From assembly GCA_023511535.1 (NCBI GenBank), contig JAIMBK010000010.1, positions 633-64,632 of the forward strand: a stretch of 64,000 nucleotides of DNA, given 5' to 3'. This document shows, piece after piece, positions 547 through 29,741 of this stretch (position 1 is the first letter of the stretch; each line of letters starts with the position of its first letter). The notes under the pieces were generated by a model, which ran no database searches, was not told the origin of the DNA, and worked only from the letters and a program-made list of their open reading frames with translations. The DNA is from Armatimonadota bacterium. Its GTDB lineage: Bacteria > Bacillota > Desulfotomaculia > Desulfotomaculales > Nap2-2B. The position numbers were made by a program, and so were the translations under genes.

Positions 547-984
547 TTATCTTAACTTTGATACCTCATTACTGGCCACTCTTTGAATACGCTTGATCTC
601 TTCCTGCATGTTCCGAGGTAAAAGAACTAGCTTTAAAGACAACCCGGGAGCCAGGCGGCCCTCTAACCTTGCGGACATGATCTGGTAAAACTCTTGTGAG
701 GTAAAAACTAATAACCTTTTCGAGGCCGAAACGAGAGTTAAGTAATATAATTCTGCCTCGGCATTCTTTATCTTTCCTGAAGGAACCCGTCCCCTTGCTG
801 TCTTGCCACCAGCTGTTTTAATCGATGCAACAATTGTGCCATCGTCGGACACTGCATCGAATTCATGTTTTCCGCCGGTGATCAAAGTAAGTAAGCGTGG
901 CTTAAAGGCAATGCCGAACTCTCTCGCTAACTCTTTTCTCACGTATTCCTCGACATTTTTTCGCAGGTAGGTCGTGTTGGCCAT
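547..984 (-). CDS. Hypothetical 145-aa protein, possibly PD-(D/E)xK nuclease fold, at the distal end of the SIR2-HerA gene block
   Basis: Intact ORF with a GAAGGT SD-like sequence 4 nt before the ATG. The motif GGKHEFDAVSDDGTIVASIK resembles a D...(D/E/S)xK restriction-endonuclease-fold core. The fold is assigned by eye only. Confidence 0.45.
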   Translation of the reverse strand: MANTTYLRKNVEEYVRKELAREFGIAFKPRLLTLITGGKHEFDAVSDDGTIVASIKTAGGKTARGRVPSGKIKNAEAELYYLTLVSASKRLLVFTSQEFYQIMSARLEGRLAPGLSLKLVLLPRNMQEEIKRIQRVASNEVSKLR

Positions 985-1097
985 TTTTACCTTCGGCCCC
1001 TCAATGGAACAAATGGGTTATGCTTATCAACTCTTATGTAAACATTGGTAATGTTAGGCTATTTTGCAGTCACGTATTATCAATGACGACTTGGCTC

Positions 1098-3350
1098 TCA
1101 AAATGGTACTTCGTCATCAAAATCATCTTCTGAAACAACTTCTGTTTCTTCAAGCAATGTATCTTTTGATCCATCCTCCGGCTCGCCATCACTTTCATGT
1201 ATCCAGGTTTTTAGGAACTCCCCAATGTTGAACTGCTCTTTTCCCGGTTGCCATGCTTCCCACGGTCGAGGAGTATCACTCGTCGGAACGGGCTCCGGCT
1301 TTCGCACCTTCACTCTTGCTGCTACGTTAACAGCACTTCCCAAAAGAAGGCCTTCGCCGGGGGCTAAGATTGGTAATTGCTCGAGTAAATCACGTGAACC
1401 AATGGGTAGGATTTTCTTGAAATATTCTATATCCTCGGGATTTTGGATGCGATGCACCAGGAAATTTGCACACTGGGACAGCACCGTAGCACTGACATCC
1501 GACGGACGCTGACTCGCAATGATAAGAGAAAGCCCAAACTTTCGGCCTTCTTTGGCAATTCTCTCAAAGGTTTCCCGCGCTAATGTAAGACCGGGAGCTT
1601 CATCTTGGTTCCGTGGCTTAAGGTAGTTGTGAGCCTCTTCAAGTACGAGTACGTATGGTTGAACAGTTCTTTTAGCAGGCTCTGCCTGGGTCCTAACTTC
1701 CAGCAAAATCCGCCCAAAAACAGCGCAAAAGAAAGGAAGTACGTCGTGGGCAAGCATCGAGCAGTCCACTACGATAACTTGGTCATCATCCTGACCAGTC
1801 ATTGCCCATAGGATATCTTCTAACGAACCTCCGCCTTGTGTAAATACCGACCACCGCTTGTCCGCCAGTTGTCGATGGATACGCAATCTCAAAGTGGAAA
1901 TAAACTCCTGAATACGTGACTCTGCTCCGTGACGCGAAGCAGCGATATGAAAGTGAGCATCCCGTTCAAGTTCACGGGGATTAAATTGGATCGGGCTATC
2001 CGCAATAATCTGCTTGAGCCCACCTTTTGTAACTATATCCAAACGGAACTGCTGAAAAACAGGTTCTAATTTAGCAACAAATTGCACTACCTCCTCAGCC
2101 ACACCAGGGGGTAACCTCTGAAATTCGGCCCAGTTCTTTTCTTTACGAAGACTCTCATATTCTTCCTTGCTTCTAAGACCTCGTTCTCTAATCTTCTCAA
2201 TATCTTTTTCTATTCCATTAAACTGTGAGGGTAACCCAACTTTGTATTTCGCCAGTTCTCTCGCCAGTTCTCTTATTATATAAATGGTTTCTTGTAAGTG
2301 TGATATCAATTCGGCCGTATTATCTGATACTGCTGTACCGTCTGCCTCTGCTGCATATACAGAAAGGCTACCTAAGTAATTAAGGCATTTATCCACGATT
2401 CGGACAAGCCTTCTAAACGGCTTGACCGCATCCGGGTCTACCGAATCCTCACGAATCATTGTTATAACTCTCTCCAGGACAGGAACTTGACTAGCCTGTG
2501 AGGCTTCGAAAAAACTAATCAATTCAGTCAGGTTAAATATCCACAGGGGGAGTTCAAAAGGTTTTCCGTTAATGTACGACTTATTCAATTCTCGATCCGA
2601 TATCATTTCACTCTCCGTATTTTTTAAAGGAAAAGCACTTCCGTACTCGCCGTTGATGTCAAGAATAATAAACTTTGGTAATGGTTTAAATTCCCGGTTC
2701 TGCTGCTCAACAGCCGGTTGCTCCTGCTTATTCAGTAACGCTAGAGCCGATTGAATAATTGAAGCAACACTCCATGACTTCCCGGAACCGGTATTACCGA
2801 TAACACCAAAAGGCCGGGCCAATAGATCGTTAAAGGAAACGGTTACATCCTGTCTGTATATGGGCGATGGACCTACAACCAGGGCAATATCCCTATTATC
2901 CCGTGGCTGGTATTCCAAAATGGTTTTTAATTCTTCTTCCGTAGGTAAAAGTGCGGGCGTTTCGAGAACAGGGTATATAGACACTCCTGGCTCGAAAGGC
3001 ATGCTCTCTCTGAGTTGACCAAGAAGATTAATGGTTAAAATCCGCCGCGAACGGGCAAGTTGTAAGGCCATATCCCTTTCTGTATCTGCCTCTATGGTTT
3101 CATTTTCTGAAGCCCCTATCACAATACCGACCGCCGACTCACCCGGAGCAACGGGAAACAAAAGATATCCGCCTATTTGGGTGACAACTGATATACGATG
3201 GGGATACGACCGAATTTGGCTTCTGACATCAGGATCGAGTAACACTTTTACCCGATAGTTGAACACAGAAATTACTCGCCCAACCTCTCGTACATTTTTC
3301 ACCCCAAGATCAGGCACCATTCCCACCCCCTTATTGTAGCTTAGCTTCAA
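1098..3350 (-). CDS. herA: HerA-family (FtsK/HerA clade, DUF87-like) ATPase, partner of the upstream SIR2 protein
   Basis: Walker A FGVIGNTGSGKSWSV, Walker B YVLVLEEAHNYL and RKFGLSLIIASQRPSDV are typical of HerA ATPases. There is an N-terminal barrel-like GRVISVFNYRVKVLL. The ORF opens at TTG 3350, but the SD-supported ATG (GGGGG N5 ATG) is at 3320. The C-terminal tail is acidic. Confidence 0.85.
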   Translation of the reverse strand: MKLSYNKGVGMVPDLGVKNVREVGRVISVFNYRVKVLLDPDVRSQIRSYPHRISVVTQIGGYLLFPVAPGESAVGIVIGASENETIEADTERDMALQLARSRRILTINLLGQLRESMPFEPGVSIYPVLETPALLPTEEELKTILEYQPRDNRDIALVVGPSPIYRQDVTVSFNDLLARPFGVIGNTGSGKSWSVASIIQSALALLNKQEQPAVEQQNREFKPLPKFIILDINGEYGSAFPLKNTESEMISDRELNKSYINGKPFELPLWIFNLTELISFFEASQASQVPVLERVITMIREDSVDPDAVKPFRRLVRIVDKCLNYLGSLSVYAAEADGTAVSDNTAELISHLQETIYIIRELARELAKYKVGLPSQFNGIEKDIEKIRERGLRSKEEYESLRKEKNWAEFQRLPPGVAEEVVQFVAKLEPVFQQFRLDIVTKGGLKQIIADSPIQFNPRELERDAHFHIAASRHGAESRIQEFISTLRLRIHRQLADKRWSVFTQGGGSLEDILWAMTGQDDDQVIVVDCSMLAHDVLPFFCAVFGRILLEVRTQAEPAKRTVQPYVLVLEEAHNYLKPRNQDEAPGLTLARETFERIAKEGRKFGLSLIIASQRPSDVSATVLSQCANFLVHRIQNPEDIEYFKKILPIGSRDLLEQLPILAPGEGLLLGSAVNVAARVKVRKPEPVPTSDTPRPWEAWQPGKEQFNIGEFLKTWIHESDGEPEDGSKDTLLEETEVVSEDDFDDEVPF

Positions 3351-4906
3351 CCAATCTTATTATTTTGAGATTTCTGCAGGTCTCGAAGTGTTTGCGCTAT
3401 TGCTAATTCAGTTCTTAAAACTTCCAGATCAGGTAAGACATGCAAAGCAAAAAACTCAAATGTTCCCCAATGACCGCCCAGGCAATAAATCCGGCCGCAA
3501 GCATCAGCACGACAAAGTCTCCTGGCCCAAGAAGAGGGGTTTGGATCTATGATGACACACGTGAAGCTGGGATTTGTGAGGGCATCTTCGATTAACTGAT
3601 TTATATGATCATCCCATCCGCTGTACCCAATAATCATTAAAACCGTTTGGGGTTCTCTCAAAGCTTGCGAAAATGCCCGAAACATGTGCGAGAATGGCAT
3701 TGCAAGGGTTTCTCCATATTTGCCGGACGTGGGAAGGATAGCAAGTCCTTCACCTTTATCAAGAACCCTTTCCAGGTCAGGACTGTCTGAACTCTTACTC
3801 TCGCTAAGAAGGTCAGCTTCTCGAGGTAGAGGCCTATTGTCAAACACAATTCCATAGGGATTCCCTGCCGAGCCAAATTTGCTGCGCCGCCAGTTAATGC
3901 TTCCATGTAACTTATAAAGGTGCAGAACTTTATCGTAGCGGCGAACCCTTCCCTCGGTAACCTCTCCTGGATAATAAAGATCCAAATCATATGCAGCAGG
4001 ATTGAAACGCCTTGCAACAGTGCCTGTGAAGCCATCGCAATACATGACTCCCAGCCTATCCATTGCTTGTTCGATAAGCGTATCGTAATTTGTTGTAAAT
4101 ATTTTTGTTCTGCCCTGTTGGGGATCGCGCGCACTGAGCTTGGCAATTAAAGCTTCGTGAGGAGTGATATCCCATTCATGATCGCGAGCGTCGGGTGCGG
4201 AAAATCGGCTTGAAGGAAGATCTACGTTACAAACAACAGTGATTGCCCGCTCCAGATCAAGCAGTAACTCACTTAACCTAGTAATTCTAAGCTGGCGCCC
4301 CCGAATTCCCTTGAGAGGTATATCCAAGATCATCTGATCTATCGGCCACTGGCTTGCCTCTGATAAAGATCGCCAGGCCGTTAACTGGGAAAGAAATTTT
4401 TCAAAATGCCATCCAACTTTATCGGGAGCGCTCGCATGTGCAAGTATCGCTTTCAGTGTCAACTCTGAACTTCGCCCTTCGAGCAACTTATTTATCCGGC
4501 CAAAGAGTCCGGAACCGACAAACCCGGTCACATAAAAAGAAGCTCCTGCTCCGATCAAGATGCGGACATTCTGCATTTTTAACCATCGAGCAAAAAGTGC
4601 TAGCACTTCCTGGCGGATATTACTTTTTCGTTCATCTTCATTATCTTTTGCAAATCTTGACAGCCAATTTTCAGACCCCCGATAGAGAATGTTTGGGCTC
4701 CAAATACCTGGCGATATCTGTGTTATATCAGGCATTTCTGAAGATTGGAGATCAAACTGCAAGTTAAACCAGGGGTCATGACTTTTTCCTTCCAATTGCG
4801 GAAAAGGATCCTCTGGCGTTGCCTCTATTATTTTATCGTCCTTTTCAGCGTTCATTTGTCCTTCCTCGCTCTCTTGAGTAGCTCTTAACCCATCTTCAAT
4901 TCCCAA
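3347..4906 (-). CDS. SIR2-family protein (predicted NAD+-consuming effector of a SIR2-HerA system)
   Basis: Rossmann start RILIGAGASF, catalytic-type IFTTNYDTLIEQ (Asn) and LYKLHGSINW (His) are characteristic of the prokaryotic SIR2_2 family. It lies immediately upstream of herA. The ORF opens at TTG 4906. The better SD (GAGGAAGGA) precedes ATG 4855. Confidence 0.85.
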   Translation of the reverse strand: MGIEDGLRATQESEEGQMNAEKDDKIIEATPEDPFPQLEGKSHDPWFNLQFDLQSSEMPDITQISPGIWSPNILYRGSENWLSRFAKDNEDERKSNIRQEVLALFARWLKMQNVRILIGAGASFYVTGFVGSGLFGRINKLLEGRSSELTLKAILAHASAPDKVGWHFEKFLSQLTAWRSLSEASQWPIDQMILDIPLKGIRGRQLRITRLSELLLDLERAITVVCNVDLPSSRFSAPDARDHEWDITPHEALIAKLSARDPQQGRTKIFTTNYDTLIEQAMDRLGVMYCDGFTGTVARRFNPAAYDLDLYYPGEVTEGRVRRYDKVLHLYKLHGSINWRRSKFGSAGNPYGIVFDNRPLPREADLLSESKSSDSPDLERVLDKGEGLAILPTSGKYGETLAMPFSHMFRAFSQALREPQTVLMIIGYSGWDDHINQLIEDALTNPSFTCVIIDPNPSSWARRLCRADACGRIYCLGGHWGTFEFFALHVLPDLEVLRTELAIAQTLRDLQKSQNNKIG

Positions 4907-4907
4907 A

Positions 4908-6212
4908 TTAAGCAGGTTTAACCCCGTTATACATCTCCCCGTAAAAAGTTCTAAATTCAGAGTAATTAATTGGCCGGTAATGAGCCAGTTCGTTACGTAT
5001 TTTTCTACCCGTTGTAACCAATGATAACCACCGGCGTTCAGGCTGCAAAGAATGGCAATACTTCAACAGGTATTCGAGGTGCCCCCATTGACAGGCCAGA
5101 GGATTATCCCTCACGGCCTGTTTTTCCTCTTCGGAGAGCGGTGGGAACCAGCGGATCGGCCAGTTATGTCCATAACGACGGGTAAGCAAATTGCATATCG
5201 TTAATCGTACATCGTCTAAAACAGGTAACAGTAGAGCCGCTTGGCCACGCCAGATTCGATGCCATAATTCTTCTTTCTTCCCGAGAAAATTTAAGGCAGC
5301 TGAATGTAGCTCGATACCATATTCCGGGGTAGCCATCAATAAACCATGTGACCAAAGGCGAAATAATTTTAATGGTGGGGCAACTGATGGCGCACCTGGC
5401 AATCCAAATCGTACCCCCCTCTCATTTAAATTCTGAAATTCAAATCCCTGCCCGACCAGGTTTTCCCACGTCCATCCGCATTGATAACTATAAGCTTGTA
5501 GACTTTGAACAATTTTTTCCAGGTCGCCATCCACTTCATTCCATAGATAAGCCATACAGGCTATGTCGTTACCAACTAAAGCAGGTAAAAGGAATTCCCG
5601 CCAAAGAGAAGAAGCTCCCCACTTTTCCTGTTCAAGTTCATTATTTATCCGACATAAAAGTTGCATTTCGAGAGCGGTAGGAAATCCCCACCACCAGCGC
5701 ACAGAGAGGTATAGGCTACTTGTTGGAACCTCACAGGGTAACATATTAGCCGGTATTACCAGGCAGATGGCAGGCGCCATTACTCCATAATCTGCTGTAT
5801 TTTGGCTATGCCAAGACCATTGCACAAGAAATTCAAGCCAAATTTTACGTTTAATCTCTGGCAAAATACAATAACCATCAAGCCAGATTAAGTCCGGCAG
5901 GCTGCTGCTGGCTACAATTAGGTTAGCTACTGTACGTGATATGTTGCCTTCTCCCCAATCAACCCCTAACGCCTCACCTAATGCAGCCGGCGGCGGACGA
6001 TCAGGAAAAAATTCGGGGAGCGGAAGTGTTACGGAACTAATGTCCCGCCGCCATAACTCTTCACGAAGAACCGTCATAACTTGGGCAGGTTCAATATTCA
6101 GCGGCAAAAGAAGTAATACACTTCGCCTATTGGCGAGATCATCAACAATACTGGCAAGAAAACGCCGGACGCTGGGTAACTGAAAAAAGCCGGAGTAGAG
6201 AAAAGAGCTCAT
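4908..6212 (-). CDS. Hypothetical 434-aa protein with a C-terminal HEPN-like domain (RNxxxH motif)
   Basis: The ATG overlaps the stop of the giant upstream gene (ATGA, 6209-6212). The C-terminal TGRKIRNELAHYRP (nt 4980-4997 encode RNELAH) fits the HEPN Rx4-6H signature with a polar residue after R. The N-terminal ~200 aa has strand/helix patterns (SVLLLLPLN, DLIWLDG, AICLVIPA) like a P-loop fold lacking Walker A. That last point is inference. Confidence 0.6.
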   Translation of the reverse strand: MSSFLYSGFFQLPSVRRFLASIVDDLANRRSVLLLLPLNIEPAQVMTVLREELWRRDISSVTLPLPEFFPDRPPPAALGEALGVDWGEGNISRTVANLIVASSSLPDLIWLDGYCILPEIKRKIWLEFLVQWSWHSQNTADYGVMAPAICLVIPANMLPCEVPTSSLYLSVRWWWGFPTALEMQLLCRINNELEQEKWGASSLWREFLLPALVGNDIACMAYLWNEVDGDLEKIVQSLQAYSYQCGWTWENLVGQGFEFQNLNERGVRFGLPGAPSVAPPLKLFRLWSHGLLMATPEYGIELHSAALNFLGKKEELWHRIWRGQAALLLPVLDDVRLTICNLLTRRYGHNWPIRWFPPLSEEEKQAVRDNPLACQWGHLEYLLKYCHSLQPERRWLSLVTTGRKIRNELAHYRPINYSEFRTFYGEMYNGVKPA

Positions 6213-9200
6213 ACTTTGAGCAACCTTTCTACTATTGGTTCTAAGATCAAGCCTTCTTCAGGATGGATTTCCGTCAGCCCCATCATTTGCAAATATTCCA
6301 AAACAGCAGCCCAAACTTTTTCCGAGGCAGGTTGTCCAGATGATAACAATTCGCATATATGCTCCGGGGTAGCTAATTCCAAAGGTATTGACTTTTCCTG
6401 GATAATAAATCTTGCCAACTTTTCAATGTGTTCATTTATCTCTAAACCTAATTGCGACCAAAAGTTTTGTCTAAGCGGGGAACCCATTTCTTTCAGTTCG
6501 TTATCAATTTGGCAACAAAATGGACGGGGATCATCGGCCTCTCCACACCGGATAAATAACTCGTCCAACAGGTATGGCCAACCGCCCGTTGTCTGGAAGA
6601 CTTGCTCACATACATCTTTTGAGTCCATTTTGTTGCGTTGAACAATCCTTTGTTTAATGGCGGCCAGATTCCATCGCCGCGGCCAAAGCACTACGTCAAC
6701 CTGATTCTCCAGCTCCTTCCGATCAGTTGCGGGTAAAGTAAGCCATTCCCATGTTGCTTTCGGCGGAAAGACAAACAGAACCCTTAACCACTGTCCTTTT
6801 TTCTTGCCTTTATATTTCTGGCATATCCTTACAGCGCTGTTTATTAATGGCTCTATCTCCTTCGCGCTGCCTTTCATTTCTCGGTAAACAACCAGACGCC
6901 CATACCCGCTGTGCATTTTCAAATAATCTTCCAGCCAGATTCTCATTTTTCCAGCATCGTTAACCTCCGGAGGAATGCTGGCTAAATCTCCCCAAACACC
7001 GGCGGTTACTTCCGTTGGCTCGCCAGTCACTAAAGACCTGAAAGCTTCAACAAAACGGTTTAACCCCAAAGCTCCCGAAGCAAATAGCAACCCCACGCCA
7101 AACTGCCGCGTGTTCAGGCTTCGTTCCTGCCCAAACGAAAGGGGATTGTAGTACCGGCCGTTGCAATCAAGAGGAGCATGATAGTTATTGGGATCATCGT
7201 TCTGATCATCCGGCGAAGCATAGGAAAGCTCCAGCAGACGTTCCTCAATGTGGTCTTTTGTTCCGATTATCCGAACGAGATTCGGACTCCGCAAGTGATA
7301 GTAACCTTCGTTGCTACGCCATAACACTCCCAAACCGCACATTTCGTCCAATAGACCGCGAAACTCGTCGGAGCGGATCTGGCCAAATCCCTGTTCCCAC
7401 CACTCACTGGCCATGCGCAGTATATCCGTTGCTCGATAAGACTGAGCGAACACATCCCGCTTATCCAAATGGTCATAAATTATTGTCCAGGCAATAGCCT
7501 GATAACGTTTATCGAGGGCCAGCGTCCAATCGAAACGCTCTTTAAATTGTTCCCGGATTTCCTGCATGCGATAAACGGCTTCAATATCACTTCGATCGAT
7601 TACGTAAGGATACTGCGGCTTTTCTCTCCTGGCTTTATTGTGAAGTCGTATCAGGAGTTTCTGACAAAAAAGCTGGATTAGACCAGGGTGGTAGTTGGTG
7701 TAAGACAAAATACGAAGAATAAGCGCATCATCCTTAAAACGGTAACCAAGCGACGATAATGGCTTACGAATCAGTTCTTGGGCTGCACCTGGCTCCAGCG
7801 GTCCAACCCGCATCGGAGCGCCAAACTGGGCCAGGGGCTGATTTGCCAAACCCTGAAAACGTTGTACATTGTGAAGACCTGCAAAAACTACTTTGAACCT
7901 GCGCTGTGTATTTTGCATTAAAATCCGCAACTGGTCGACGATACAGAAATTATCCCTGGCATCCGCATCCAGAAAGTTATCCGCTTCATCAAACAGCACC
8001 AGGACACGATAACGGGGGTTCTTTTCAAGGACATTACGCAAATGAGTTATAATTTCATCCGGTAAATCGGTATTTATTTTTGGCGGAAGCAGCCCGAGCA
8101 TCTTGAAAACGTCCCGGAGTTTTTTCCAAATTACACTGGTGGGCTGGCCAGTTTTTGGGTCGCCTACAATCTTAATGTCTTCTACATAGGCATACTGATC
8201 ATTCTGCGGTTGGTGGAACTCTCGCTGTACATAGCGCAAAAGAGCAGACTTGCCTAATTGACGACCGCCGTATACCACACAACTCTCCTCCGGGCGCTGT
8301 AACTTACGGACCATATCTTCCCGGCCAAAAAACATCTCCTGGGGTACGTCGCCGGCCTGGAAAGGTGTATAAGGATTTACAGCAGTGAAAGGAAGGGAAC
8401 ATTTAAAGAAAGACGAGAGACGCGCCGTGCGCTCGGCAGCTAGAAAAACCAGCAATATCTCATCTAAAACCGCCATGGTTAAGCCCCGTTCGATTGATAA
8501 TTGCTTCATGACATGACGACGTTCCAGACTCATCCGTCCCAGGTAAAAAACCAACACATTGCGGTTATCCAGTTTCAAATCGCGTAACCAAGCGCTCATT
8601 GTATCCACGCTGGGTCGTTCCCACAGACAAATCACATCATATACTCCCTGCTGTTGAGAACCAAATTGCGGTACTGGCGCAAGCCCGCCTGCTGACATAG
8701 GAACACGAGACATATAAAAATAGTAATCGCTCGCATATAAATTATTAGCCGGTACTTTTAATCCAGGTTCTATGTTAAAACCTAGATAATGTAATATATA
8801 CGTAATTAAAGTAACTTTTTCCTTATTAGTCATTCTTCCTTGTTTTAACCTGCGCCATGCCTCAATGGCAGACAGCGCCTCGTCACGCCGCGGGCGCGGC
8901 AATTTGCCAAAGTTTAAACCGGCCCAACGCCGTTCATTGCGGATTGCATCACCAACAGCGACAACACCGTGATCCCGCCCCAGTTCTTCTTCGATTCTTT
9001 TCAAGGACTCTTTAAATTCATGAAAGACATCCCGTTCATCAACGCGGGGAACAAACCAGTTATCCTCAATTTCCTCTCCAGTGTCTAAGGCCCTCGCCAG
9101 GCGGGACAGAATTTCCTCTACTACACGCGTATCCCCCTGATCTAAAGCATTTTGAACGAAACTTTGCACCTGTGCTTTGCGGTTTTGATCAATTTTCGCT

Positions 9201-12169
9201 TCGTTCAAGCGTTCCTGTATACTTTGCCATTGGTTAGTTAACAAGATCAAACGCTCGCTCCGCGCTGTATCTAGCCTGGTCAGAATTTGGTCTAAAACAG
9301 CATAACAAGGTGTGAAATTTTGGACAGCCTTAACATCTATTGCCTGAATCTGGGCACTATATTCTGCCCGTTCTTCACCAATGATTCCATCAACTACCGC
9401 CTGCTCAATTGCTTCTTCTGTATGTCGGATTTTATCCTCGAGGGCAGCCCTGGAACCTTCGAGTTCTTCCTGATATTTTTTGCACAAACCGTTATATTCT
9501 TGCTCTGTACCCAATGCTCGCGCCAACTGGTCCGCAAACCGAAAATCCTTTTTCTCCAACCAACCCATAAAGGCTTCCTGCCAGGAGGGATTTTGTGCAT
9601 AGGCATCACGCAAGACCGTAGCAATAGGTGCCAACGCTAAAGGTTCTCCGTTATCGTTCAGAGTAAGTTCCGAAAAAAGGAATAACCTTCGCCGGAAAGC
9701 CTTCATTAAAGTATCCTCTTCGCTGATAAGCCAGTCCCAACGGTTCTCCGGCAAAGAAGATTTCAGGTACTCCGCCGGTAATTGTAAAATCCGGCATAAC
9801 TGCCCGGCGGCCCGAAGGAGGCAATACCCACCAGCCAGCAGGGAAATAGGGGCAGGTTTGCTGGTTAGGTTACGCCAGCTTTCCTCTTCTTCGGCAAGAG
9901 CTTTTTGAACACCTTGCCGCAATTCGGTAATGCGTTCCGCCAGCCAGTTTCTGCCCAGCCGTTCAATATCCTTCTCTTGCTCAACTAGTTCACACCAGCG
10001 GATGGCAAGAAAACATCCATCGCGGACATAACGAATAATCTGTTCCCGAGGATCACCTGTAATCAAATTATACTTTTTCCCCATTAGTTTGCGGTCAACG
10101 GCATTGATTTGGTCGGTGACAAAATCTCTCTGAAACCAATTATCAATTTCTTGCCGCACCAGTTGTACCCGATCACGACGGTCTTCCGCGACCAGCAATA
10201 AAATTGCTCCTAATTGACCTTTACTATCAATCAAATCCTGCCATACAGCGGTGGCCCGGTTCAATTTTGTTCTCCGCCCGCGCGCACCCTCCAACCAATC
10301 CTTAACCTTCAGGGATGCCTCTCGAATGGTCTGTTCACGCAGTTCAATACCGGAAACACTTAAGAGATCGGTTCTTTGAATCGGCACCCCAAGTTGCGCA
10401 AAAGTTTTTATTGTTTCAATTAAGCTATGCAAAAAAGGATGATTCCCCGGTACTTTTAGCCAACCCATTAATCCGCTTTTTGGCGCAATCAGAGTTGGGC
10501 ATAACGCTGCCGCCAAACCCAACAATTCCTGTACCTCGTCGTTTTCAGGCTGATGGTTGCGAGCAATTTCAAGCAGATCCTGAACAAAAAGATCGGAGTC
10601 CAGGTTTAACCATCTTGCCCCCTGGAGCGCCTGCAGGAGCCAATATTGTAATGGCGAAGAAGCGTACTTTTCCTCTAATGACCTTGCCAACCAGTAGGCG
10701 CCGGCGAGATCGTCTTCGATGATCAAAGACCAGAAAAAGTCATTCCAATTATCCAGGCCATCATGGGAAAATAAAGTGACCGCAATATCGTGGGCCGATG
10801 CCCGTTTTTCCTTTACCAATCTTAATGAAATTTTTTCGGGAGGCTGGGACTCAGGAACGACTGCAGTACGTTGATTTTCCGGTTGAGCCACTGCAACTTC
10901 CAGAGAAGCAAAAGGCGATTGATTAGTTCCGTTTTTCTCTGTAGAAGGTGAAATTAAGGAAATTTCCTCATGCTCCAAAAGGGAAAAAGGTGGTGGTGAA
11001 GAATCTAGCTTTGGCAACTGCTGTTCCAAATTGTTCCCCTTTTCAACGTGATCATCTTCTTCTGCTTTTCCTTTTTCCTGACATTGTTGTTCACCTTTCT
11101 CTTCCCGATCGGCTTTCCCAGGTATGCAGCTGGCAGGCAAAAATACTTCCGTCAATTCCTGATAGATCTGCTGGATTTTTTCTTCCAGTTCCTCCTGCTT
11201 TTTGCGGCGTTCGCGCTCTTCATGAATTGTAGCACCAGTTTGACGAAGTTCCTGGTAGAAACCAAAAAGTTCAAACAACCTTTCAATGCGGTCACAAGCT
11301 TCGGTTGCCTGTTGATATGAACAATTACGTACATCCCACTGGTCCGTATTTGTTATGCCAAAAAAGATTAATTCTTTTGCCCATTCCTTTTGCAATTTAC
11401 GCAAATCATGCTGTAAAAGCTCCAGGACAGAATCCTTTTCCCGGCTTTTGCTCTCCGCCAGTTCTTTTAACTGGTTAATAAAATCATTAACAGACTCCCA
11501 TTCGGGCGCTTCCGCCGGCAAAGCTTTTAGTTCTTCCAACCATTTGTGCCATAGTAGACCGACACCCAAACCTTTTTCCTCTTTCTCCTCAACGGATCCC
11601 TCTTCCTTTACCTCATCTCCTTCTTCTGTTATTTCATCTCCTTCTTCCATGGCCGATAAAATTGCTTCCTCAATTAAAGAAGCGATGAGAAGACGAACAT
11701 CGTTTTGGCAGTAACCCCGTTCAGCAACTAAAAAGGCAACCGCATCTTCAACCTGTTGTAATAGATATCCGCAATTCCCTGGATCTTCAAGTGAGTTTGC
11801 CAAACACTCAACTATCTTTTTTGGTCCTATGCACTGCTGGTTAAGATACTCCAGAATTTCGACCTTCAGTTCGCCCTTTGTTTCTTCCCATACTTTAAGG
11901 ATTGCTTTGAGCAATTGATCAGAATAATATGTAACAGCTTTTATTTCCTGGCCTAAAAGACGTACAGGCGCCTTTAATGGGTTTCGAAACCCGTTGATCT
12001 GGATATGGCCCCTAATGGTTTGCTCCAGTTGTCGGCGTGCCGGGAAGGATGCTTCCTTCCAGTGGCCAAGGGCCTGCCTGATGATTTCTTCCCGGTAACT
12101 TTCATCTTTTTTCACAATGGTTAGAATGTTATCTAAAAATGACGCTAAATCTTTTATTTGTTCTGACAC
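6209..12169 (-). CDS. Giant (1986 aa) P-loop NTPase, AAA+/STAND-like (Arch_ATPase-like core), with long uncharacterised N- and C-terminal regions
   Basis: Uninterrupted 5.96-kb ORF. GTG start sits 9 nt after AAAGGAGGG. FFGREDMVRKL...VVYGGRQLGKSALLRYV is Walker A (nt 8246-8269, aa ~1301). RVLVLFDEADNFL is Walker B and KVVFAGLHNVQRF is sensor-1-like. No other motif is recognisable by eye in ~1290 aa upstream or ~600 aa downstream of the core. Confidence 0.8.
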   Translation of the reverse strand: MSEQIKDLASFLDNILTIVKKDESYREEIIRQALGHWKEASFPARRQLEQTIRGHIQINGFRNPLKAPVRLLGQEIKAVTYYSDQLLKAILKVWEETKGELKVEILEYLNQQCIGPKKIVECLANSLEDPGNCGYLLQQVEDAVAFLVAERGYCQNDVRLLIASLIEEAILSAMEEGDEITEEGDEVKEEGSVEEKEEKGLGVGLLWHKWLEELKALPAEAPEWESVNDFINQLKELAESKSREKDSVLELLQHDLRKLQKEWAKELIFFGITNTDQWDVRNCSYQQATEACDRIERLFELFGFYQELRQTGATIHEERERRKKQEELEEKIQQIYQELTEVFLPASCIPGKADREEKGEQQCQEKGKAEEDDHVEKGNNLEQQLPKLDSSPPPFSLLEHEEISLISPSTEKNGTNQSPFASLEVAVAQPENQRTAVVPESQPPEKISLRLVKEKRASAHDIAVTLFSHDGLDNWNDFFWSLIIEDDLAGAYWLARSLEEKYASSPLQYWLLQALQGARWLNLDSDLFVQDLLEIARNHQPENDEVQELLGLAAALCPTLIAPKSGLMGWLKVPGNHPFLHSLIETIKTFAQLGVPIQRTDLLSVSGIELREQTIREASLKVKDWLEGARGRRTKLNRATAVWQDLIDSKGQLGAILLLVAEDRRDRVQLVRQEIDNWFQRDFVTDQINAVDRKLMGKKYNLITGDPREQIIRYVRDGCFLAIRWCELVEQEKDIERLGRNWLAERITELRQGVQKALAEEEESWRNLTSKPAPISLLAGGYCLLRAAGQLCRILQLPAEYLKSSLPENRWDWLISEEDTLMKAFRRRLFLFSELTLNDNGEPLALAPIATVLRDAYAQNPSWQEAFMGWLEKKDFRFADQLARALGTEQEYNGLCKKYQEELEGSRAALEDKIRHTEEAIEQAVVDGIIGEERAEYSAQIQAIDVKAVQNFTPCYAVLDQILTRLDTARSERLILLTNQWQSIQERLNEAKIDQNRKAQVQSFVQNALDQGDTRVVEEILSRLARALDTGEEIEDNWFVPRVDERDVFHEFKESLKRIEEELGRDHGVVAVGDAIRNERRWAGLNFGKLPRPRRDEALSAIEAWRRLKQGRMTNKEKVTLITYILHYLGFNIEPGLKVPANNLYASDYYFYMSRVPMSAGGLAPVPQFGSQQQGVYDVICLWERPSVDTMSAWLRDLKLDNRNVLVFYLGRMSLERRHVMKQLSIERGLTMAVLDEILLVFLAAERTARLSSFFKCSLPFTAVNPYTPFQAGDVPQEMFFGREDMVRKLQRPEESCVVYGGRQLGKSALLRYVQREFHQPQNDQYAYVEDIKIVGDPKTGQPTSVIWKKLRDVFKMLGLLPPKINTDLPDEIITHLRNVLEKNPRYRVLVLFDEADNFLDADARDNFCIVDQLRILMQNTQRRFKVVFAGLHNVQRFQGLANQPLAQFGAPMRVGPLEPGAAQELIRKPLSSLGYRFKDDALILRILSYTNYHPGLIQLFCQKLLIRLHNKARREKPQYPYVIDRSDIEAVYRMQEIREQFKERFDWTLALDKRYQAIAWTIIYDHLDKRDVFAQSYRATDILRMASEWWEQGFGQIRSDEFRGLLDEMCGLGVLWRSNEGYYHLRSPNLVRIIGTKDHIEERLLELSYASPDDQNDDPNNYHAPLDCNGRYYNPLSFGQERSLNTRQFGVGLLFASGALGLNRFVEAFRSLVTGEPTEVTAGVWGDLASIPPEVNDAGKMRIWLEDYLKMHSGYGRLVVYREMKGSAKEIEPLINSAVRICQKYKGKKKGQWLRVLFVFPPKATWEWLTLPATDRKELENQVDVVLWPRRWNLAAIKQRIVQRNKMDSKDVCEQVFQTTGGWPYLLDELFIRCGEADDPRPFCCQIDNELKEMGSPLRQNFWSQLGLEINEHIEKLARFIIQEKSIPLELATPEHICELLSSGQPASEKVWAAVLEYLQMMGLTEIHPEEGLILEPIVERLLKV

Positions 12170-12700
12170 CTTTCCTTACCCTCCTTTAAATATAAACCGG
12201 TAATAAATAACTGATTATAAGGTATATAACCGACTTCAATTTGTCACGGTTTAAAATTTTTTTAACGATGTTTCTCCTGGTCGATTTGTCACTGGACTTA
12301 TTTCAATTTGTTAGGCAAACTCTTTAACAGCAAAAATCGTCTTAAGCAATCTACCGCCGAGGTGACCTATACCATGCCCGCTCTTAAACCTGATTTCGAT
12401 GTAATGCTACAATTTTCCTGCAATGAAATATTATTTTTTTCTATACTTCCAAAAATATTTGGTCTTCAGGCGAGACGTAAAAAAGGTTTCAGTAATCGGA
12501 AAGACCGGGCATTTGGTCAATTGCATCGTGGCGATCCGGTGGTCCTTAAATGATAGTGGACGACTTTTTGCTGAAATCTAATTTAAATGCACAAGCCCCT
12601 TAATGCATTGGCTACCTTTTCTAAAAAAATGATTAGTGATAGAGCAACCAAATTGCAAGTATGAGTAAATATTTCTACAAAGATTTTACAATAAAATCTT

Positions 12701-25539: not shown

Positions 25540-25978
25540 TTACAGGTGCCCAATCTCAACCTCCGGCAATCGGTCACAGTAATACTCGGCCAGGAGCCTT
25601 CTATGGCATCGATCTGGCTTATCCTCAGAACAAAGCAAAACAAAAGGGGCCTTTTTGCTTCTCGAAATCTATACTCTGCAGTGGTTCTCTTTGAATAAGC
25701 AAATTCTTATAGATCTTTTCATATTCTTGCCAGGTTATTTTCTTACTCTTATAACTTTTCAGCAAATCTTCCGTTGGCGCCAGTTCCGGGTGGTGTTCGT
25801 AATCAATTCCAACAAGACCCAGGACATATTCCAGGTCTTCTTTTTTGGCGTAACCGGCCAACTGCGAAGTATTATTAAGCCGGACATCGATAACTTTTTT
25901 TACGCCCGCGTTTTTTAATCTGGTAATAAACTCCTTTAAATTCTTTTTCGAGAAACCAATAGTATAAATGAAAATCAA
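25540..25978 (-). pseudogene. DUF488-family gene disrupted by a 1-nt frameshift (or assembly indel) in a homopolymer-rich stretch
   Basis: Frame A encodes MIFIYTIGFSKKNLKEFITRLKNAGVKKVIDVRLNNTS...EKQKGPFCFALF*. Shifting +1 near 25642-25657 (A4/G4/T5 runs) continues as APFVLLCSEDKPDRCHRRLLAEYYCDRL..., the conserved DUF488 C-terminal CHR motif, ending at 25540. Confidence 0.7.
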
Positions 25979-25995
25979 TTTACTTTCCTCCAGTT

Positions 25996-26469
25996 TTAAA
26001 ATAAAGTCAATTGCTCTACTTCAATGTTATTCTTAGCTTTCTTATGTTCTTCTACTCTTACTCCGTGCTGCCTGAGGAAGTTTCTCACCAGGGTCCTGTG
26101 GCAATATCTGCTGTCCCTACAGTAACATACTAGCGCAATGACTCTCCCCGACTCAACATGAATCCAGATTTTCCTCAAAGCGTTAAGCTTCTCATCTGTT
26201 CTTAGTTCTTGCTCAAATATTTCTTTATACTTGTCCCACCATTCGTTACCCGGCCTGTCTTTCCATTCATGCAAATACCTTTTAAACAACTGGGGGCCTG
26301 GTGCTAAATCAGGTACCCACATAGTTCCAGGAATATGATTACCGGCGCGAGTTATCTGCCATACCTCGTCACAAATGATATCTTTAACAGATGAGACATC
26401 CGCGGTAATAACATACCCCCTGGAATTATTTTTCACAATATTCATCTCCCATCCTGGCAAGGGCATCAT
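25996..26469 (-). CDS. Second, divergent DUF488-like protein (157 aa)
   Basis: VPDLAPGPQLFKRYLHEW...WWDKYKEIFEQELRTDEKLNALRKI...GRVIALVCYCRDSRYCHRTLVRNFL follows the DUF488 pattern (LAPS..L, W..Y...EL, C.C...CHR). The start is uncertain among ATG 26469, 26466 and 26445. Confidence 0.6.
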   Translation of the reverse strand: MMPLPGWEMNIVKNNSRGYVITADVSSVKDIICDEVWQITRAGNHIPGTMWVPDLAPGPQLFKRYLHEWKDRPGNEWWDKYKEIFEQELRTDEKLNALRKIWIHVESGRVIALVCYCRDSRYCHRTLVRNFLRQHGVRVEEHKKAKNNIEVEQLTLF

Positions 26470-27482
26470 TAGAAGTACATTAAGTGAAAAATCATCCCGG
26501 ATAACCGCCTCTGGAATCTGCTGCCACTTTAATTATAGCATGGCAGTCCTTGTTTTTCCAGCAGGACTTTAAAGCCGATTCGGATGGCACTGGTGCGGAA
26601 TATTTGCAGCTTTCCTTTACTTTTTACATTCAAATTCTCTTAATAGAGCATTTTCCCGGAGCTTTTCCAGGTCTGCCCGCTATTAGGGCCGGGCATATAT
26701 CAGCAAATGGAATCTTTCTTATGCAAATTATTCTTCCCGGCCTTCCGCCGCTTTGCGAACACGTATTCGCACATCCTTTTGTAAAAGGTCTGTATGCGAT
26801 CCACGAGGCTTCCCAGGTGAGGAAGACCATGCTCAGTAAATTCCGAGAGCTGGCAATGTTGGGCCAGTTTGGCGACTTCCTCCAGCAGTTCACGGAGAAA
26901 GTTGGCGGCGCAAGGGCGTCCGTTACGAAGGACCAGACCTGTCTCCACGGCCCTCCGACCGAATTGTGAGCTCAAAATATTATCAACACTTTGCACCGGC
27001 GATGGAACCTCCCCAGTACATCGCAACTTAATTAAGTATCCATTATTACGCTGCCTTGACAAGCTCTACTGGTAACATCACTTTTGAAACGACTTTTTAC
27101 AGAAACTGTAGCAATAGAGGGGCAGTAGAGCGGAATGTATTTGCCGTTCGCGATAAATGAAAAGGGAGTTCACCTGTTACATTAAAATTTCCCAAGCCAA
27201 ATAAACCCCCTCCCGGTTAAGTTTTAACAGACGATGGCACAATTTCCATCGGCTGTATTAATTTCGTGCCTTACCGTTTTTTAACTTTATATACGTTTTT
27301 CTACAAATGTTCTGGCTTTCCTTCCATCTTTCGCCAGTGGAGCTAAAGATTTTTTAGGAAACTTATTCGAAAACCTAAAAAATTGCTTCCAAAAAGTTGG
27401 AGGCCAAAGAAAATTACTCGAAAAAATTTCCAAAAAGTATTCTATATAGACTGTTCGATAACATATAATCCGCCGCAGTTAC

Positions 27483-27665: not shown

Positions 27666-27692
27666 AAGCAAACCCCTTTCTAAAAAATTAAG

Positions 27693-27731
27693 AGCCTGCT
27701 GGCCTTCACTTTACCGCTGGACCAGCAGGCT
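27693..27731 (-). terminator. Perfect 10-bp hairpin followed by a T-run on the minus strand
   Basis: AGCCTGCTGG (27693-27702) pairs with CCAGCAGGCT (27722-27731) across a 19-nt loop. On the minus strand it is followed by CTTAATTTTTT, just upstream of the small ORF's SD. Confidence 0.35.

Positions 27732-29665: not shown

Positions 29666-29741
<76 letters not shown>

What the first reader, a model, noticed from the sequence alone, without database searches (positions are those of the whole stretch)
547..12169. Giant NTPase and HEPN protein packed into one operon with SIR2-HerA: candidate expanded or new defence system
SIR2-HerA is known as a two-gene anti-phage system (reported in the Gao et al. 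2020 screen, later shown to deplete NAD+). Here the SIR2 and HerA genes are the 3' half of a co-directional block with almost no intergenic space. The giant 1986-aa gene overlaps the 434-aa gene by ATGA (6209-6212). The 434-aa stop (4908-4910) is 1 nt from the SIR2 ORF opening and at most ~52 nt from its best SD-supported ATG (4855). The SIR2 stop (3347) overlaps the HerA ORF opening and is 26 nt from its SD-supported ATG (3320). I could not see room for, or evidence of, an internal promoter. The only obvious promoter-sized gap is 12170-12700, upstream of the giant gene. All these genes share a visibly AT-richer composition than the neighbouring BREX genes, which suggests they were acquired as one unit. 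The block therefore combines two NTPases (giant P-loop protein, HerA) and two putative effectors (HEPN RNase-like, SIR2 NADase-like). I do not recognise this architecture as a named system.
Basis: partly seen in the sequence, partly recalled or inferred. Interest (0 to 1): 0.9.

Follow-up and report, generated by a model that had tools for sequence, protein, structure and literature searches.

The report
Two stacked defence modules, one unnamed
The four tightly packed genes are not one enlarged SIR2-HerA system: they are an ordinary two-gene SIR2-HerA cassette sitting directly behind a separate, widespread and so far unnamed gene pair (a giant ATPase plus a predicted RNA-cutting partner) that occurs in many other bacteria without SIR2-HerA.

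Summary
The genes, coordinates, ATGA overlap, tiny gaps and AT-richer composition are all present.

The interpretation as one expanded SIR2-HerA system is not supported.
- The 1986-aa and 434-aa genes form an autonomous conserved pair. In about 41 of 45 genome loci from at least 10 phyla the giant gene lies directly upstream of the 434-aa homologue. An NTGA stop/start overlap occurs in 28 of 39 loci, and the two proteins co-diverge (r = 0.95).
- No locus carries a SIR2 gene. One carries a distant HerA-like neighbour.
- A 94%-identical SIR2-HerA cassette lies in another contig behind unrelated genes. Similarity starts about 40 nt upstream of the SIR2 ATG.
- GC3 differs between the two pairs (0.41-0.44 against 0.54-0.58).

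What remains of interest is the pair itself.
- The giant has an active ORC/Cdc6-STAND-like AAA+ ATPase (GGRQLGKS, DEAD).
- The 434-aa partner has a Walker-less AAA+-like domain and a Swt1-like HEPN domain with invariant RNxxAH.
- Neither gene matches any PADLOC v2 model.
- The partner family has 417 clusters at E <= 1e-30.
- The pair often lies next to BREX, restriction-modification, DruE or other defence genes.

I read it as a candidate ATP-switched HEPN RNase abortive-infection module, stacked in a BREX / SIR2-HerA island.

The parts
6209..12169 (-). Giant 1986-aa gene, first gene of the conserved pair. GTG start with GGAGGG Shine-Dalgarno; TGA stop overlaps the next gene's ATG.
   Evidence: ORF; start context. 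A homologue lies directly upstream of the 434-aa homologue in about 41 of 45 loci. No PADLOC hit.
8720..12169 (-). N-terminal about 1150 aa of the giant. Residues 1-200 are variable or absent in about half of the homologues, 350-450 is an acidic low-complexity linker, and 450-1150 is conserved. The modelled part (from residue 787) is all-alpha. Function unknown; I propose it as the sensor or scaffold.
   Evidence: Conservation profile of 31 homologues. Helical secondary structure for residues 787-1146 in the model. No Pfam or PDB sequence hit. Residues 1-786 were not modelled.
7202..8341 (-). Active ORC/Cdc6-STAND-like AAA+ NTPase with helical lid and winged helix (aa about 1277-1656).
   Evidence: Pfam AAA_22, ATPase_2 and AAA_16. 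Foldseek hits: A. pernix ORC2 1w5t (TMt 0.54), CED-4 (0.46-0.49), RuvB, Avs3. This is the most conserved part of the family.
8246..8269 (-). Walker A motif GGRQLGKS (aa 1301-1308).
   Evidence: Translation. G1301, G1302, R1303, Q1304, G1306 and K1307 are kept in at least 95% of 31 homologues.
7979..7996 (-). Walker B motif LFDEAD (aa 1392-1397).
   Evidence: Translation. D1394, E1395, A1396 and D1397 are kept in at least 95% of homologues.
6212..7180 (-). C-terminal second alpha/beta (AAA+-like, no Walker motifs) domain with helical and winged-helix tail (aa about 1664-1986).
   Evidence: Secondary structure of model m459659f5cbcb. The best Foldseek matches are tandem-AAA+ proteins (ClpC, ClpA, p97, NSF) aligned over about 700 columns.
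4908..6212 (-). 434-aa partner gene, second gene of the conserved pair.
   Evidence: ORF. 158 homologues of 405-460 aa. 1442 clusters at 50% identity, of which 417 have E <= 1e-30. AF2 model pLDDT 91.7.
5313..6212 (-). N-terminal AAA+-like domain without a Walker A motif (aa about 1-300; LLPxGxD sits where the P-loop would be). I propose it as the docking or regulatory domain.
   Evidence: Foldseek hits to ORC3, RuvB, RFC, Cdc6 and Hda with probability about 1.0 and E from 2e-4 to 1e-2. The alignment shows no GxxxxGK[ST].
4911..5303 (-). C-terminal Swt1-like HEPN domain (aa about 304-434), all-helical.
   Evidence: Pfam HEPN_Swt1 is hit by 11 of 39 family members, best E 2e-4, and is the only recurrent family. 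Helical secondary structure.
4980..4997 (-). RNELAH, the HEPN Rx4H catalytic motif (aa 406-411).
   Evidence: Translation. R406 and H411 are invariant; N407 and A410 are kept in at least 90% of 39 sequences.
6209..6212 (-). ATGA stop/start overlap between the giant and the 434-aa gene (translational coupling).
   Evidence: The same NTGA overlap is present in 28 of 39 related loci, and 7 more have gaps of 0-5 nt.
4858..4907 (-). Junction between the two modules: 50 nt between the 434-aa stop and the SIR2 ATG. The SIR2 RBS lies in its 3' part.
   Evidence: Similarity to the independent SIR2-HerA cassette of L047 begins about 40 nt upstream of the ATG, just after the 434-aa stop.
3347..4857 (-). 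SIR2 gene of a canonical SIR2-HerA cassette (502 aa from the ATG at 4855-4857).
   Evidence: PADLOC SIR2 1e-82; Pfam SIR2_2. Orthologue at 93% aa identity in L047.
1098..3322 (-). HerA gene of the SIR2-HerA cassette (740 aa from the ATG at 3320-3322).
   Evidence: PADLOC HerA 9e-153; Pfam DUF87. Gene call of 740 aa.
12170..12700 (.). AT-rich (GC 0.35) 531-nt intergenic region between brxL and the giant gene. It is the likely promoter region of the pair, but this is not demonstrated.
   Evidence: No minus-strand consensus promoter at the scan threshold.
547..984 (-). 145-aa ORF downstream of HerA after a 113-nt gap, of unknown function. It is not part of either conserved module.
   Evidence: No Pfam, PADLOC, NCBIfam or PDB hit. 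Absent from all 45 pair loci.

Best explanation
Window 547-12169 holds two independent defence modules laid end to end inside a larger defence island. The island runs: tRNA cluster, TumE, two DUF488 genes, BREX-1, the giant/434 pair, SIR2-HerA.

Module 1 (1098-4857) is a standard two-gene SIR2-HerA cassette, an NAD+-depleting abortive-infection system.

Module 2 (4908-12169) is an autonomous, translationally coupled gene pair that is widespread in environmental bacteria and has no name in the catalogue I could search.

Proposed mechanism of module 2; every step is inferred and none is demonstrated:
1. The giant protein is the sensor and switch. It has an active ORC/Cdc6-STAND-type AAA+ ATPase, flanked by about 1150 aa of N-terminal region (helical where modelled) and a second, degenerate AAA+-like/winged-helix module.
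2. The 434-aa protein is the effector subunit. Its Walker-less AAA+-like domain docks onto or intercalates with the giant's AAA+ modules, and this holds its Swt1-like HEPN domain inactive.
3. On sensing an invader cue, ATP-dependent oligomerisation or conformational change brings two HEPN domains together. This forms the composite Rx4H active site.
4. The active RNase cleaves cellular or phage RNA and aborts the infection.

The close packing with SIR2-HerA reflects insertion of one cassette directly behind the other. At most it causes read-through co-transcription in this genome.
For: Independence of the two modules:
- A giant homologue lies directly upstream of the 434-aa homologue, on the same strand, in about 41 of 45 genome loci. 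These span Latescibacterota, Binatia, Chloroflexota, Acidobacteriota, Myxococcota, Thermodesulfobacteriota, Methylomirabilota, Entotheonella and a Methanospirillum MAG.
- A SIR2 profile built from the full-length members of a set of 120 homologues finds nothing in those loci at E <= 1. HerA jackhmmer finds one distant hit only.
- The closest pair relatives (46-50% identity) are followed by a DUF2779 gene, an opposite-strand gene or a contig end.
- L047 carries SIR2-HerA at 94% nucleotide identity behind 296-aa and 185-aa genes and an unrelated 2012-aa NACHT protein. L048 carries SIR2-HerA behind redoxin genes.
- The breakpoint lies just after the 434-aa stop.
- GC3 is 0.41-0.44 for the pair and 0.54-0.58 for SIR2-HerA.

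The pair as a functional unit:
- An NTGA overlap occurs in 28 of 39 loci.
- Pairwise identities of the two proteins correlate at r = 0.95, with 0 of 2000 Mantel permutations reaching that value.
- No third gene is conserved.

Domains:
- Walker A and B are invariant in the giant, and its fold matches ORC2, CED-4, RuvB and Avs3.
- The partner's N-terminal half has an AAA+ fold without a P-loop.
- HEPN_Swt1 hits occur in 11 of 39 members, and R406 and H411 are invariant.

Defence context:
- In the window the pair lies between BREX-1 and SIR2-HerA.
- Elsewhere it lies next to DruE (L033), a type IIG restriction-modification enzyme plus a NACHT-FGE-sulfatase protein (L030), PDC-S68 (L032) and type I restriction-modification genes (L008, and by shared neighbour clusters L034 and L040).
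- In L003 it lies between a BrxA gene and a PglZ fragment. In L046 it lies beside an MZB-domain gene, and the giant there is broken by two IS elements.

Precedent:
- Inactive STAND/ORC-like domains paired with nuclease effectors are a recurrent theme in BREX-type systems (PMC12839542).
- Swt1-like HEPN domains fused to AAA+ or STAND ATPases are described in PMC3710099.
Against: - There is no experimental evidence of any kind for module 2.
- Many pair loci are flanked by housekeeping genes such as ABC transporters, TamB and DegT. I computed no background rate, so defence-island enrichment is not quantified.
- The HEPN assignment is below Pfam's gathering score. The window protein itself gives no HEPN_Swt1 hit, and I could not do a fold search restricted to the C-terminal domain.
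- Physical interaction between the two proteins, oligomerisation, RNA as substrate and the trigger are all inferred.
- The first 786 residues of the giant were not modelled.
- PADLOC v2.0.0 dates from 2023, so a later name cannot be excluded.
- Functional cross-talk with SIR2-HerA in this one genome cannot be excluded from sequence alone.
Confidence: 0.62

Rival explanations
1. One reading: all four genes (or five with the 145-aa ORF) form one integrated, expanded SIR2-HerA system. The giant NTPase and HEPN protein would act as additional sensor and effector for SIR2-HerA.
For: - The genes are co-directional with overlaps or gaps of at most 52 nt, and the scan found no clear internal promoter or terminator.
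- Bulk GC is similar across the block.
- One other locus (L016) has a distant HerA-like gene directly upstream of the giant (E 7e-44), and L031 has a NurA-domain neighbour.
- The literature notes recurrent coupling of ORC/Cdc6 ATPases with HerA/FtsK ATPases in other conflict systems (PMC10853773).
Against: - 0 of 45 pair loci carry SIR2, and only 1 of 45 carries a HerA-like gene. That one is in a different position and belongs to a different subfamily.
- The 94%-identical SIR2-HerA cassette and a distant one occur without the pair.
- The homology breakpoint lies exactly between the modules.
- GC3 differs between the pairs.
- SIR2-HerA is described as a two-gene system in PMC11472057.
Confidence: 0.04
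2. The modules have independent origins but have become functionally coupled in this genome. Examples: read-through co-expression from the promoter upstream of the giant, giving layered or synergistic immunity; or the pair acting as a BREX-associated 'backup' RNase effector.
For: - The tight spacing makes a single transcript plausible.
- Two loci, the window and L003, place the pair directly beside BREX genes.
- HEPN RNases adjacent to BREX loci have been proposed as backup effectors (PMC12839542).
Against: - BREX genes are absent from the other 44 loci by phmmer with the window's six BREX proteins.
- In L047 SIR2 also sits about 88 nt behind a co-directional unrelated gene. Such packing therefore seems to be a property of how the cassette inserts, not of a specific partnership.
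- There are no expression data.
Confidence: 0.22
3. The giant/434 pair is not an anti-phage system. It could be a housekeeping or stress-related ATP-dependent RNA-processing complex, or a selfish addiction (toxin-antitoxin-like) module.
For: - Many loci have housekeeping neighbours.
- There are no homologues in the plasmid or phage collections.
- HEPN domains also act in RNA processing (PMC3710099).
Against: - Distribution across distant phyla is patchy, with 29-41% identity to the window protein. The gene is absent from most genomes and is not found at a fixed genomic location.
- Decay by IS insertion and fragmentation is seen (L046, L036).
- The pair repeatedly lies next to restriction-modification, DruE, BREX, PDC-S68 and NACHT genes in unrelated lineages.
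Confidence: 0.12

Closest known systems
SIR2-HerA two-gene anti-phage system (Gao et al. 2020 screen; structures in PMC11472057)
   Same: Genes 3347-4857 and 1098-3322 match the PADLOC SIR2 and HerA models over their full length (1e-82 and 9e-153). They are in the canonical SIR2-then-HerA order with a 24-nt gap, and they recur as a two-gene cassette elsewhere (L047, L048).
   Different: Nothing unusual in the cassette itself. The upstream giant/434 genes are not part of it. Scores are below the NCBIfam equivalog cut-offs, so this is a divergent subfamily.
Avs / bacterial NLR-like STAND NTPases (for example Avs3 and Avs4; PMC13581612)
   Same: A large protein with an ORC/STAND-type NTPase, helical lid and winged helix. 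It is defence-island associated and is predicted to act as an oligomerising switch that activates a nuclease. Avs3 and Avs4 appear among the fold hits.
   Different: Avs proteins are single polypeptides with an N-terminal effector and a C-terminal repeat sensor. Here the effector is a separate, translationally coupled protein that carries its own degenerate AAA+ domain. The long extra region is N-terminal to the NTPase. No PADLOC Avs model or Pfam NACHT/NB-ARC model is hit.
HEPN-DUF499 ATPase of Hma / type-1 'BREX-related' systems (Ava_2192 family; PMC3710099, PMC12839542)
   Same: It combines a Swt1-like HEPN RNase domain with an ORC/Cdc6-STAND-type AAA+ domain in a defence context.
   Different: There the HEPN is N-terminal to an active DUF499 ATPase in one protein, and the operon needs a methyltransferase and a helicase-nuclease. 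Here the HEPN is C-terminal to an inactive AAA+-like domain, the active ATPase is a separate 2-kaa protein, and there is no methyltransferase, helicase or DUF499 hit.
BrxC (active ORC/STAND AAA+) with BrxB (inactive STAND, 'iSTAND') of BREX (PMC12839542)
   Same: An active ORC/STAND-type ATPase is paired with a Walker-less relative that is linked to the effector. The window has its own BrxB and BrxC just upstream.
   Different: The giant has no sequence similarity to the window's BrxC. No PglZ or PglX is required, the effector is a HEPN domain fused to the inactive domain, and the pair occurs without BREX in 44 of 45 other loci.
Nuclease-NTPase two-gene defence operons (Gabija, Hachiman, Olokun and others; bioRxiv 10.1101/2025.07.10.664194)
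   Same: The general logic is the same: an NTPase and a nuclease encoded in one operon and forming a complex.
   Different: Those systems use DNases with helicase, ABC or OLD-type NTPases. None has an ORC-like giant or a HEPN partner, and none of their PADLOC models is hit.

Membership tests
SIR2-HerA defence system | A SIR2-family protein of the defence-associated type | tested here: met
   PADLOC SIR2 PDLC04085 at 1.1e-82 over residues 95-498; Pfam SIR2_2 at 1e-13. NCBIfam SIR2_antiphage hits at 3e-45 but below its equivalog cut-off.
SIR2-HerA defence system | A HerA-type (DUF87) ATPase encoded directly downstream of SIR2 | tested here: met
   PADLOC HerA PDLC04106 at 8.9e-153 over residues 18-718; Pfam DUF87. 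The SIR2 stop is at 3347-3349 and the HerA ATG at 3320-3322.
SIR2-HerA defence system | The two genes form a self-contained unit that moves together | tested here: met
   L047 has the same pair at 94% nucleotide identity in a different context. L048 has a distant pair in another context.
SIR2-HerA defence system | NAD+ depletion and phage protection | not testable with these tools
   Needs an experiment.
Hypothetical four-gene 'expanded SIR2-HerA' system | Conserved co-occurrence of the giant/434 pair with SIR2-HerA | tested here: not met
   0 of 45 loci have SIR2, and 1 of 45 has a distant HerA-like gene. 0 of 4 closest-relative contigs have either. 0 of 2 other SIR2-HerA loci have the pair.
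Hypothetical four-gene 'expanded SIR2-HerA' system | Single transcription unit | not testable with these tools
   The consensus scan is uninformative. RNA-seq or 5'-RACE is needed.
HEPN superfamily (Swt1-like clade) | Conserved Rx4-6H motif | tested here: met
   RNELAH at aa 406-411. R406 and H411 are invariant in 39 sequences; N407 and A410 are kept in at least 90%.
HEPN superfamily (Swt1-like clade) | Significant match to a HEPN family profile | tested here: inconclusive
   PF18731 HEPN_Swt1 is the only recurrent Pfam hit (11 of 39 members, best E 2e-4, covering 10-109 of 115 profile positions). All hits are below the 27.5-bit gathering score, and the window protein itself gives no hit.
HEPN superfamily (Swt1-like clade) | All-alpha four-helix HEPN fold | tested here: inconclusive
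AAA+ / ORC-Cdc6-STAND NTPases (giant protein) | Walker A and Walker B motifs with the AAA+ alpha/beta core, lid and winged helix | tested here: met
   GGRQLGKS and LFDEAD are conserved. Pfam AAA_22 hits just above its cut-off (28.5 against 27 bits), while ATPase_2 and AAA_16 hit below theirs. Foldseek matches ORC2 1w5t at TMt 0.54, plus CED-4 and RuvB.
Avs / canonical STAND (NACHT, NB-ARC) receptors | Tripartite single-chain layout (N-terminal effector, NTPase, C-terminal repeat sensor) and a match to a STAND family model | tested here: not met
   No NACHT, NB-ARC or nSTAND Pfam hit and no PADLOC Avs hit. The effector is a separate gene. The region after the NTPase is a second alpha/beta domain with a winged helix, not repeats.
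Any system in PADLOC-DB v2.0.0 | HMM match of the giant or the 434-aa protein | tested here: not met
   0 families at E <= 0.1 for both proteins.
BREX (as an accessory component) | Regular linkage to BREX core genes | tested here: not met
   Only the window and L003 have BREX genes beside the pair. phmmer with the six window BREX proteins finds nothing in the other 44 loci.

The most novel reading that the evidence does not exclude
The giant/434 pair is a previously undescribed, widespread two-gene abortive-infection system. In it, an ORC/Cdc6-STAND-type ATPase of about 2000 aa controls, in trans, a HEPN RNase. The RNase is recruited through its own degenerate AAA+ domain, which would make a hetero-oligomeric 'active plus inactive AAA+' immune switch. 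This would be a split-NLR architecture distinct from the single-chain Avs proteins.
Probability: 0.4. Interest if true: 0.7.

Novelty: new variant of a known kind. Interest (0 to 1): 0.5.

Why it matters
The result corrects a tempting misreading. Tight operon-like packing and equal GC do not make one system, and here comparative genomics separates two cassettes cleanly.

It also flags a large, architecture-stable family that has no annotation and no hit in a standard defence catalogue. The family has 417 clusters at 50% identity with E <= 1e-30, spread over at least 10 phyla, mostly uncultured.

If the pair is a defence system, it would add a split, trans-acting version of the NLR-like NTPase-effector logic. 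It would also give a tractable case of an inactive AAA+ domain coupling an RNase to an active ATPase. That idea has so far been proposed mainly from sequence analysis of BREX-type systems.

Tried and rejected
- One integrated four-gene system: rejected, as described above.
- Paralogy between the 434-aa AAA+-like domain and the giant's C-terminal module: hhalign of A1 against A2 gave probability 0.5%, so nothing is detectable.
- Giant as a BrxC paralogue: BLASTP against the window's BrxC shows no similarity.
- PDB sequence relatives: none for either family profile or for the 145-aa ORF.
- Plasmid or phage carriage of the 434-aa gene: no tblastn hit.
- Metagenome scan with the single SIR2 protein: nothing confirmed. 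I used the search for homologous proteins and the look-up of encoding contigs instead.
- Contig-length coincidence: giant homologue P0134 and SIR2 P0244 are both listed with a longest contig of 96785 bases. The 16 kb around that SIR2-HerA (L048) holds no giant or 434-aa gene, so they are not adjacent. I did not look up where P0134 lies on its contig.
- A conserved third gene around the pair: clustering of neighbours found only clade-specific synteny in Latescibacterota.
- Promoter/terminator scan: no enrichment over shuffles.
- Rfam: only four tRNAs far from the block.
- Literature searches for a name for the pair found none.

Full report
**1. Checking the observation**

The minus strand of window 547-12169 carries five co-directional ORFs: 6209-12169 (1986 aa), 4908-6212 (434 aa), 3347-4906, 1098-3350 and 547-984.

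- The giant gene's TGA overlaps the 434-aa ATG as ATGA at 6209-6212.
- The 434-aa TAA is at 4908-4910. It is followed by the SIR2 ORF, whose Shine-Dalgarno-supported ATG is at 4855-4857.
- The SIR2 TGA is at 3347-3349, and the HerA ATG at 3320-3322 follows GGGGGTGGG.
- Independent gene calls on another assembly of the same sequence give 502-aa and 740-aa products, which confirms those starts.

The identities also hold. PADLOC models identify SIR2 (1e-82) and HerA (9e-153). The genes upstream are a complete BREX-1 set: BrxA, BrxB, BrxC, PglX, PglZ and BrxL.

GC is 0.45-0.46 for the five genes, 0.53-0.55 for BREX and 0.35 in the 531-nt gap at 12170-12700.

According to the name attached to the identical protein, the window comes from an Armatimonadetes MAG.

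**2. Are the four genes one system?**

I asked whether the giant/434 genes travel with SIR2-HerA.

*The pair without SIR2-HerA.* An alignment of 39 homologues of the 434-aa protein (A1) retrieved 45 loci from one-genome-per-species contigs.
- In about 41 of them a homologue of the giant lies immediately upstream on the same strand.
- phmmer with the window's SIR2, HerA and 145-aa proteins found nothing within ±10 kb.
- A SIR2 profile built from the full-length members of a set of 120 homologues found no hit at E <= 1.
- Iterated HerA searches found a single distant HerA-like gene, upstream of the giant in L016.
- The closest relatives of the pair (46-50% identity, metagenome contigs) are followed by a DUF2779 gene, an opposite-strand gene or the contig end.

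*SIR2-HerA without the pair.*
- The nearest SIR2 homologue (93% aa identity) lies in contig L047 with its HerA, and 94% nucleotide identity extends over window 4848-1875.
- Upstream of it are 296-aa, 185-aa (DUF697-like) and 89-aa genes and a 2012-aa NACHT/NPHP3_N protein that is not homologous to the giant.
- Aligning the two junctions shows that similarity starts about 40 nt upstream of the SIR2 ATG, just after the 434-aa stop codon.
- A more distant SIR2-HerA (L048) follows redoxin genes.

*Composition.* Despite equal bulk GC, GC3 is 0.44 and 0.41 for the giant and the 434-aa gene, against 0.54 and 0.58 for SIR2 and HerA.

These are two independent modules stacked end to end.

**3. The giant/434 pair is a real, conserved unit**

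- The stop/start NTGA overlap seen in the window is present in 28 of 39 loci, and seven more have gaps of 0-5 nt.
- Pairwise identities of the two proteins across 29 loci correlate at r = 0.95, with 0 of 2000 Mantel permutations reaching that value.
- No third gene is conserved. Neighbour clusters are clade-specific, for example ABC sugar-transport genes in Latescibacterota.
- The partner family is large and uniform. It has 158 clusters at 90% identity. At 50% identity it has 1442 clusters, of which 417 have E <= 1e-30, and all of the best 150 are 262-460 aa, mostly 405-445 aa.
- There are no hits in plasmid or phage collections.
- Several copies are decayed. The giant is cut by two IS elements in L046 and fragmented in L036. 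Some of the split ORFs could be assembly errors.

**4. What the proteins are**

*The 434-aa protein.* It models at pLDDT 91.7.
- Its N-terminal half has an AAA+ fold. Foldseek matches ORC3, RuvB, RFC, Cdc6 and Hda with probability about 1.0.
- The P-loop position reads LLPxGxD and no Walker A exists, so the domain is degenerate.
- The C-terminal 130 residues are helical and carry invariant R406 and H411 within RNxxAH.
- HEPN_Swt1 is the only Pfam family that recurs: 11 of 39 members, best E 2e-4, always below the gathering score.

*The giant.* The most conserved part is residues 1150-1700, with GGRQLGKS (Walker A) and LFDEAD (Walker B) kept in at least 95% of 31 homologues.
- A model of the last 1200 residues (pLDDT 78.6) matches A. 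pernix ORC2 (TMt 0.54), CED-4, RuvB and Avs3.
- Over about 700 columns it also matches tandem-AAA+ proteins (ClpC, ClpA, p97, NSF).
- This fits an active ORC/Cdc6-STAND-like AAA+ with lid and winged helix, followed by a second alpha/beta domain without Walker motifs and a further helical/winged-helix tail.
- The N-terminal 1150 residues are helical where modelled, include an acidic low-complexity linker and have no detectable relatives. Residues 1-786 were not modelled.

*Catalogue matches.* Neither protein hits any PADLOC v2.0.0 model. The giant is not similar to the window's BrxC, and the partner is not detectably similar to the giant.

**5. Context**

In the window the pair sits in a defence island that starts near four tRNA genes (28.7-30.8 kb). 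The island contains a TumE toxin gene, two DUF488 genes, BREX-1, the pair and SIR2-HerA.

Elsewhere the pair has these neighbours:
- DruE in L033.
- A type IIG restriction-modification enzyme and a NACHT-FGE-sulfatase protein in L030.
- PDC-S68 in L032.
- Type I restriction-modification genes in L008 and, by shared neighbour clusters, L034 and L040.
- A BrxA gene on one side and a PglZ fragment on the other in L003.
- An MZB-domain gene in L046.

Many other loci have housekeeping neighbours. The defence association is suggestive but not quantified.

**6. Most likely mechanism (inferred)**

The giant is an ATP-dependent sensor and switch. The 434-aa protein is its effector subunit, made in fixed proportion through translational coupling. 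It would dock through its inactive AAA+-like domain. Activation would bring HEPN domains together to form the composite Rx4H RNase site, which would cause abortive infection through RNA cleavage.

Shown here: gene linkage, motif conservation and folds. Inferred: complex formation, the trigger, the RNA substrate and the defence role.

Two lines of precedent support this reading. Inactive STAND/ORC-like domains coupled to nuclease effectors occur in BREX and related systems (PMC12839542). Swt1-like HEPN domains are found fused to AAA+ or STAND ATPases (PMC3710099).

SIR2-HerA is an established two-gene system (PMC11472057). That it was found in the Gao et al. 2020 screen and depletes NAD+ is from my own knowledge of the literature.

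**7. Comparison and novelty**

The 3' half is an ordinary, somewhat divergent SIR2-HerA. The 5' half works like a split NLR/Avs or like a HEPN-DUF499 ATPase, but it fails the membership tests for Avs, Hma/BR, BREX and every PADLOC family.

I rate the finding as a new variant of a known kind: NTPase-controlled nuclease defence modules. The 'expanded SIR2-HerA' reading has about 4% probability. Some functional coupling in this genome, such as read-through or layered immunity, cannot be excluded (about 20%).

**8. Verdict**

Interest is moderate (0.5). The headline claim falls, but an unannotated, widespread two-gene candidate defence module with a distinctive active/inactive AAA+ plus HEPN architecture emerges and can be tested directly.

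Noticed in passing
L031:8612-10477 (+), Roseiflexaceae MAG contig: A single 622-aa ORF joins a homologue of the giant's N-terminal region (giant aa 25-347) directly to the HEPN part of the 434-aa protein (aa 278-427), with no ATPase. It lies next to a NurA-domain gene. It is either a deletion remnant or a natural 'mini' fusion, which would hint that the giant's N-terminus and the HEPN domain work together.
   Followed up: partly
L042:3811-4587, L044:1326-1946: Short ORFs (259 and 207 aa) carry only the HEPN-like C-terminal domain of the family, without a giant gene nearby. The HEPN module therefore also exists outside the pair.
   Followed up: no
L003:2898-3731 and 11521-11853: In an Anaerolineales MAG the pair sits between a BrxA gene (PADLOC 5e-70) and a 111-aa PglZ fragment (1e-29). 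It looks as if the pair replaced the interior of a BREX-1 locus.
   Followed up: partly
L016:3-3317 (+): A protein of at least 1105 aa lies directly upstream of the giant. Its C-terminal part is HerA/mad8-like (jackhmmer 7e-44; PADLOC mad8 2e-35) and its N-terminal 730 aa have no hits. It is cut off by the locus edge.
   Followed up: partly
window 547-984 (-): A 145-aa ORF lies 113 nt downstream of HerA with no hit in Pfam, PADLOC, NCBIfam or PDB. By eye the sequence has a possible PD-(D/E)xK-like pattern (EFDAVS...ASIK), which I did not test.
   Followed up: partly
window 25625-30775: The island boundary region holds two adjacent DUF488 genes (25625-25978 and 25996-26469) just upstream of brxA. 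It also holds four tRNA genes (Cys, Gly, Phe, Asp at 28693-30775) and a TumE toxin gene (30017-30376). GC jumps to 0.64 at the pyruvate phosphate dikinase gene from 30854.
   Followed up: partly
L047:207-6245 (+): The 94%-identical SIR2-HerA cassette elsewhere also lies downstream of a giant (2012-aa) NTPase. That protein is a NACHT/NPHP3_N STAND protein unrelated to the window's giant. The resemblance to the window's layout is superficial, or it is a second case of large-NTPase/SIR2-HerA stacking.
   Followed up: partly
window 5021-5049 (-): A sigma-70-like match (TTTGCA, 17-nt spacer, TATCAT; 9 of 12) lies inside the 3' end of the 434-aa gene, about 165 nt upstream of the SIR2 ATG. It is not above chance, but it shows that an internal promoter cannot be excluded.
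   Followed up: no
P0134 and P0244: A giant homologue named from Calderihabitans maritimus and a SIR2 homologue are both listed with a longest contig of 96785 bases. The 16 kb around that SIR2-HerA (L048) contains no giant or 434-aa gene. I did not look up where P0134 lies on its contig.
   Followed up: partly
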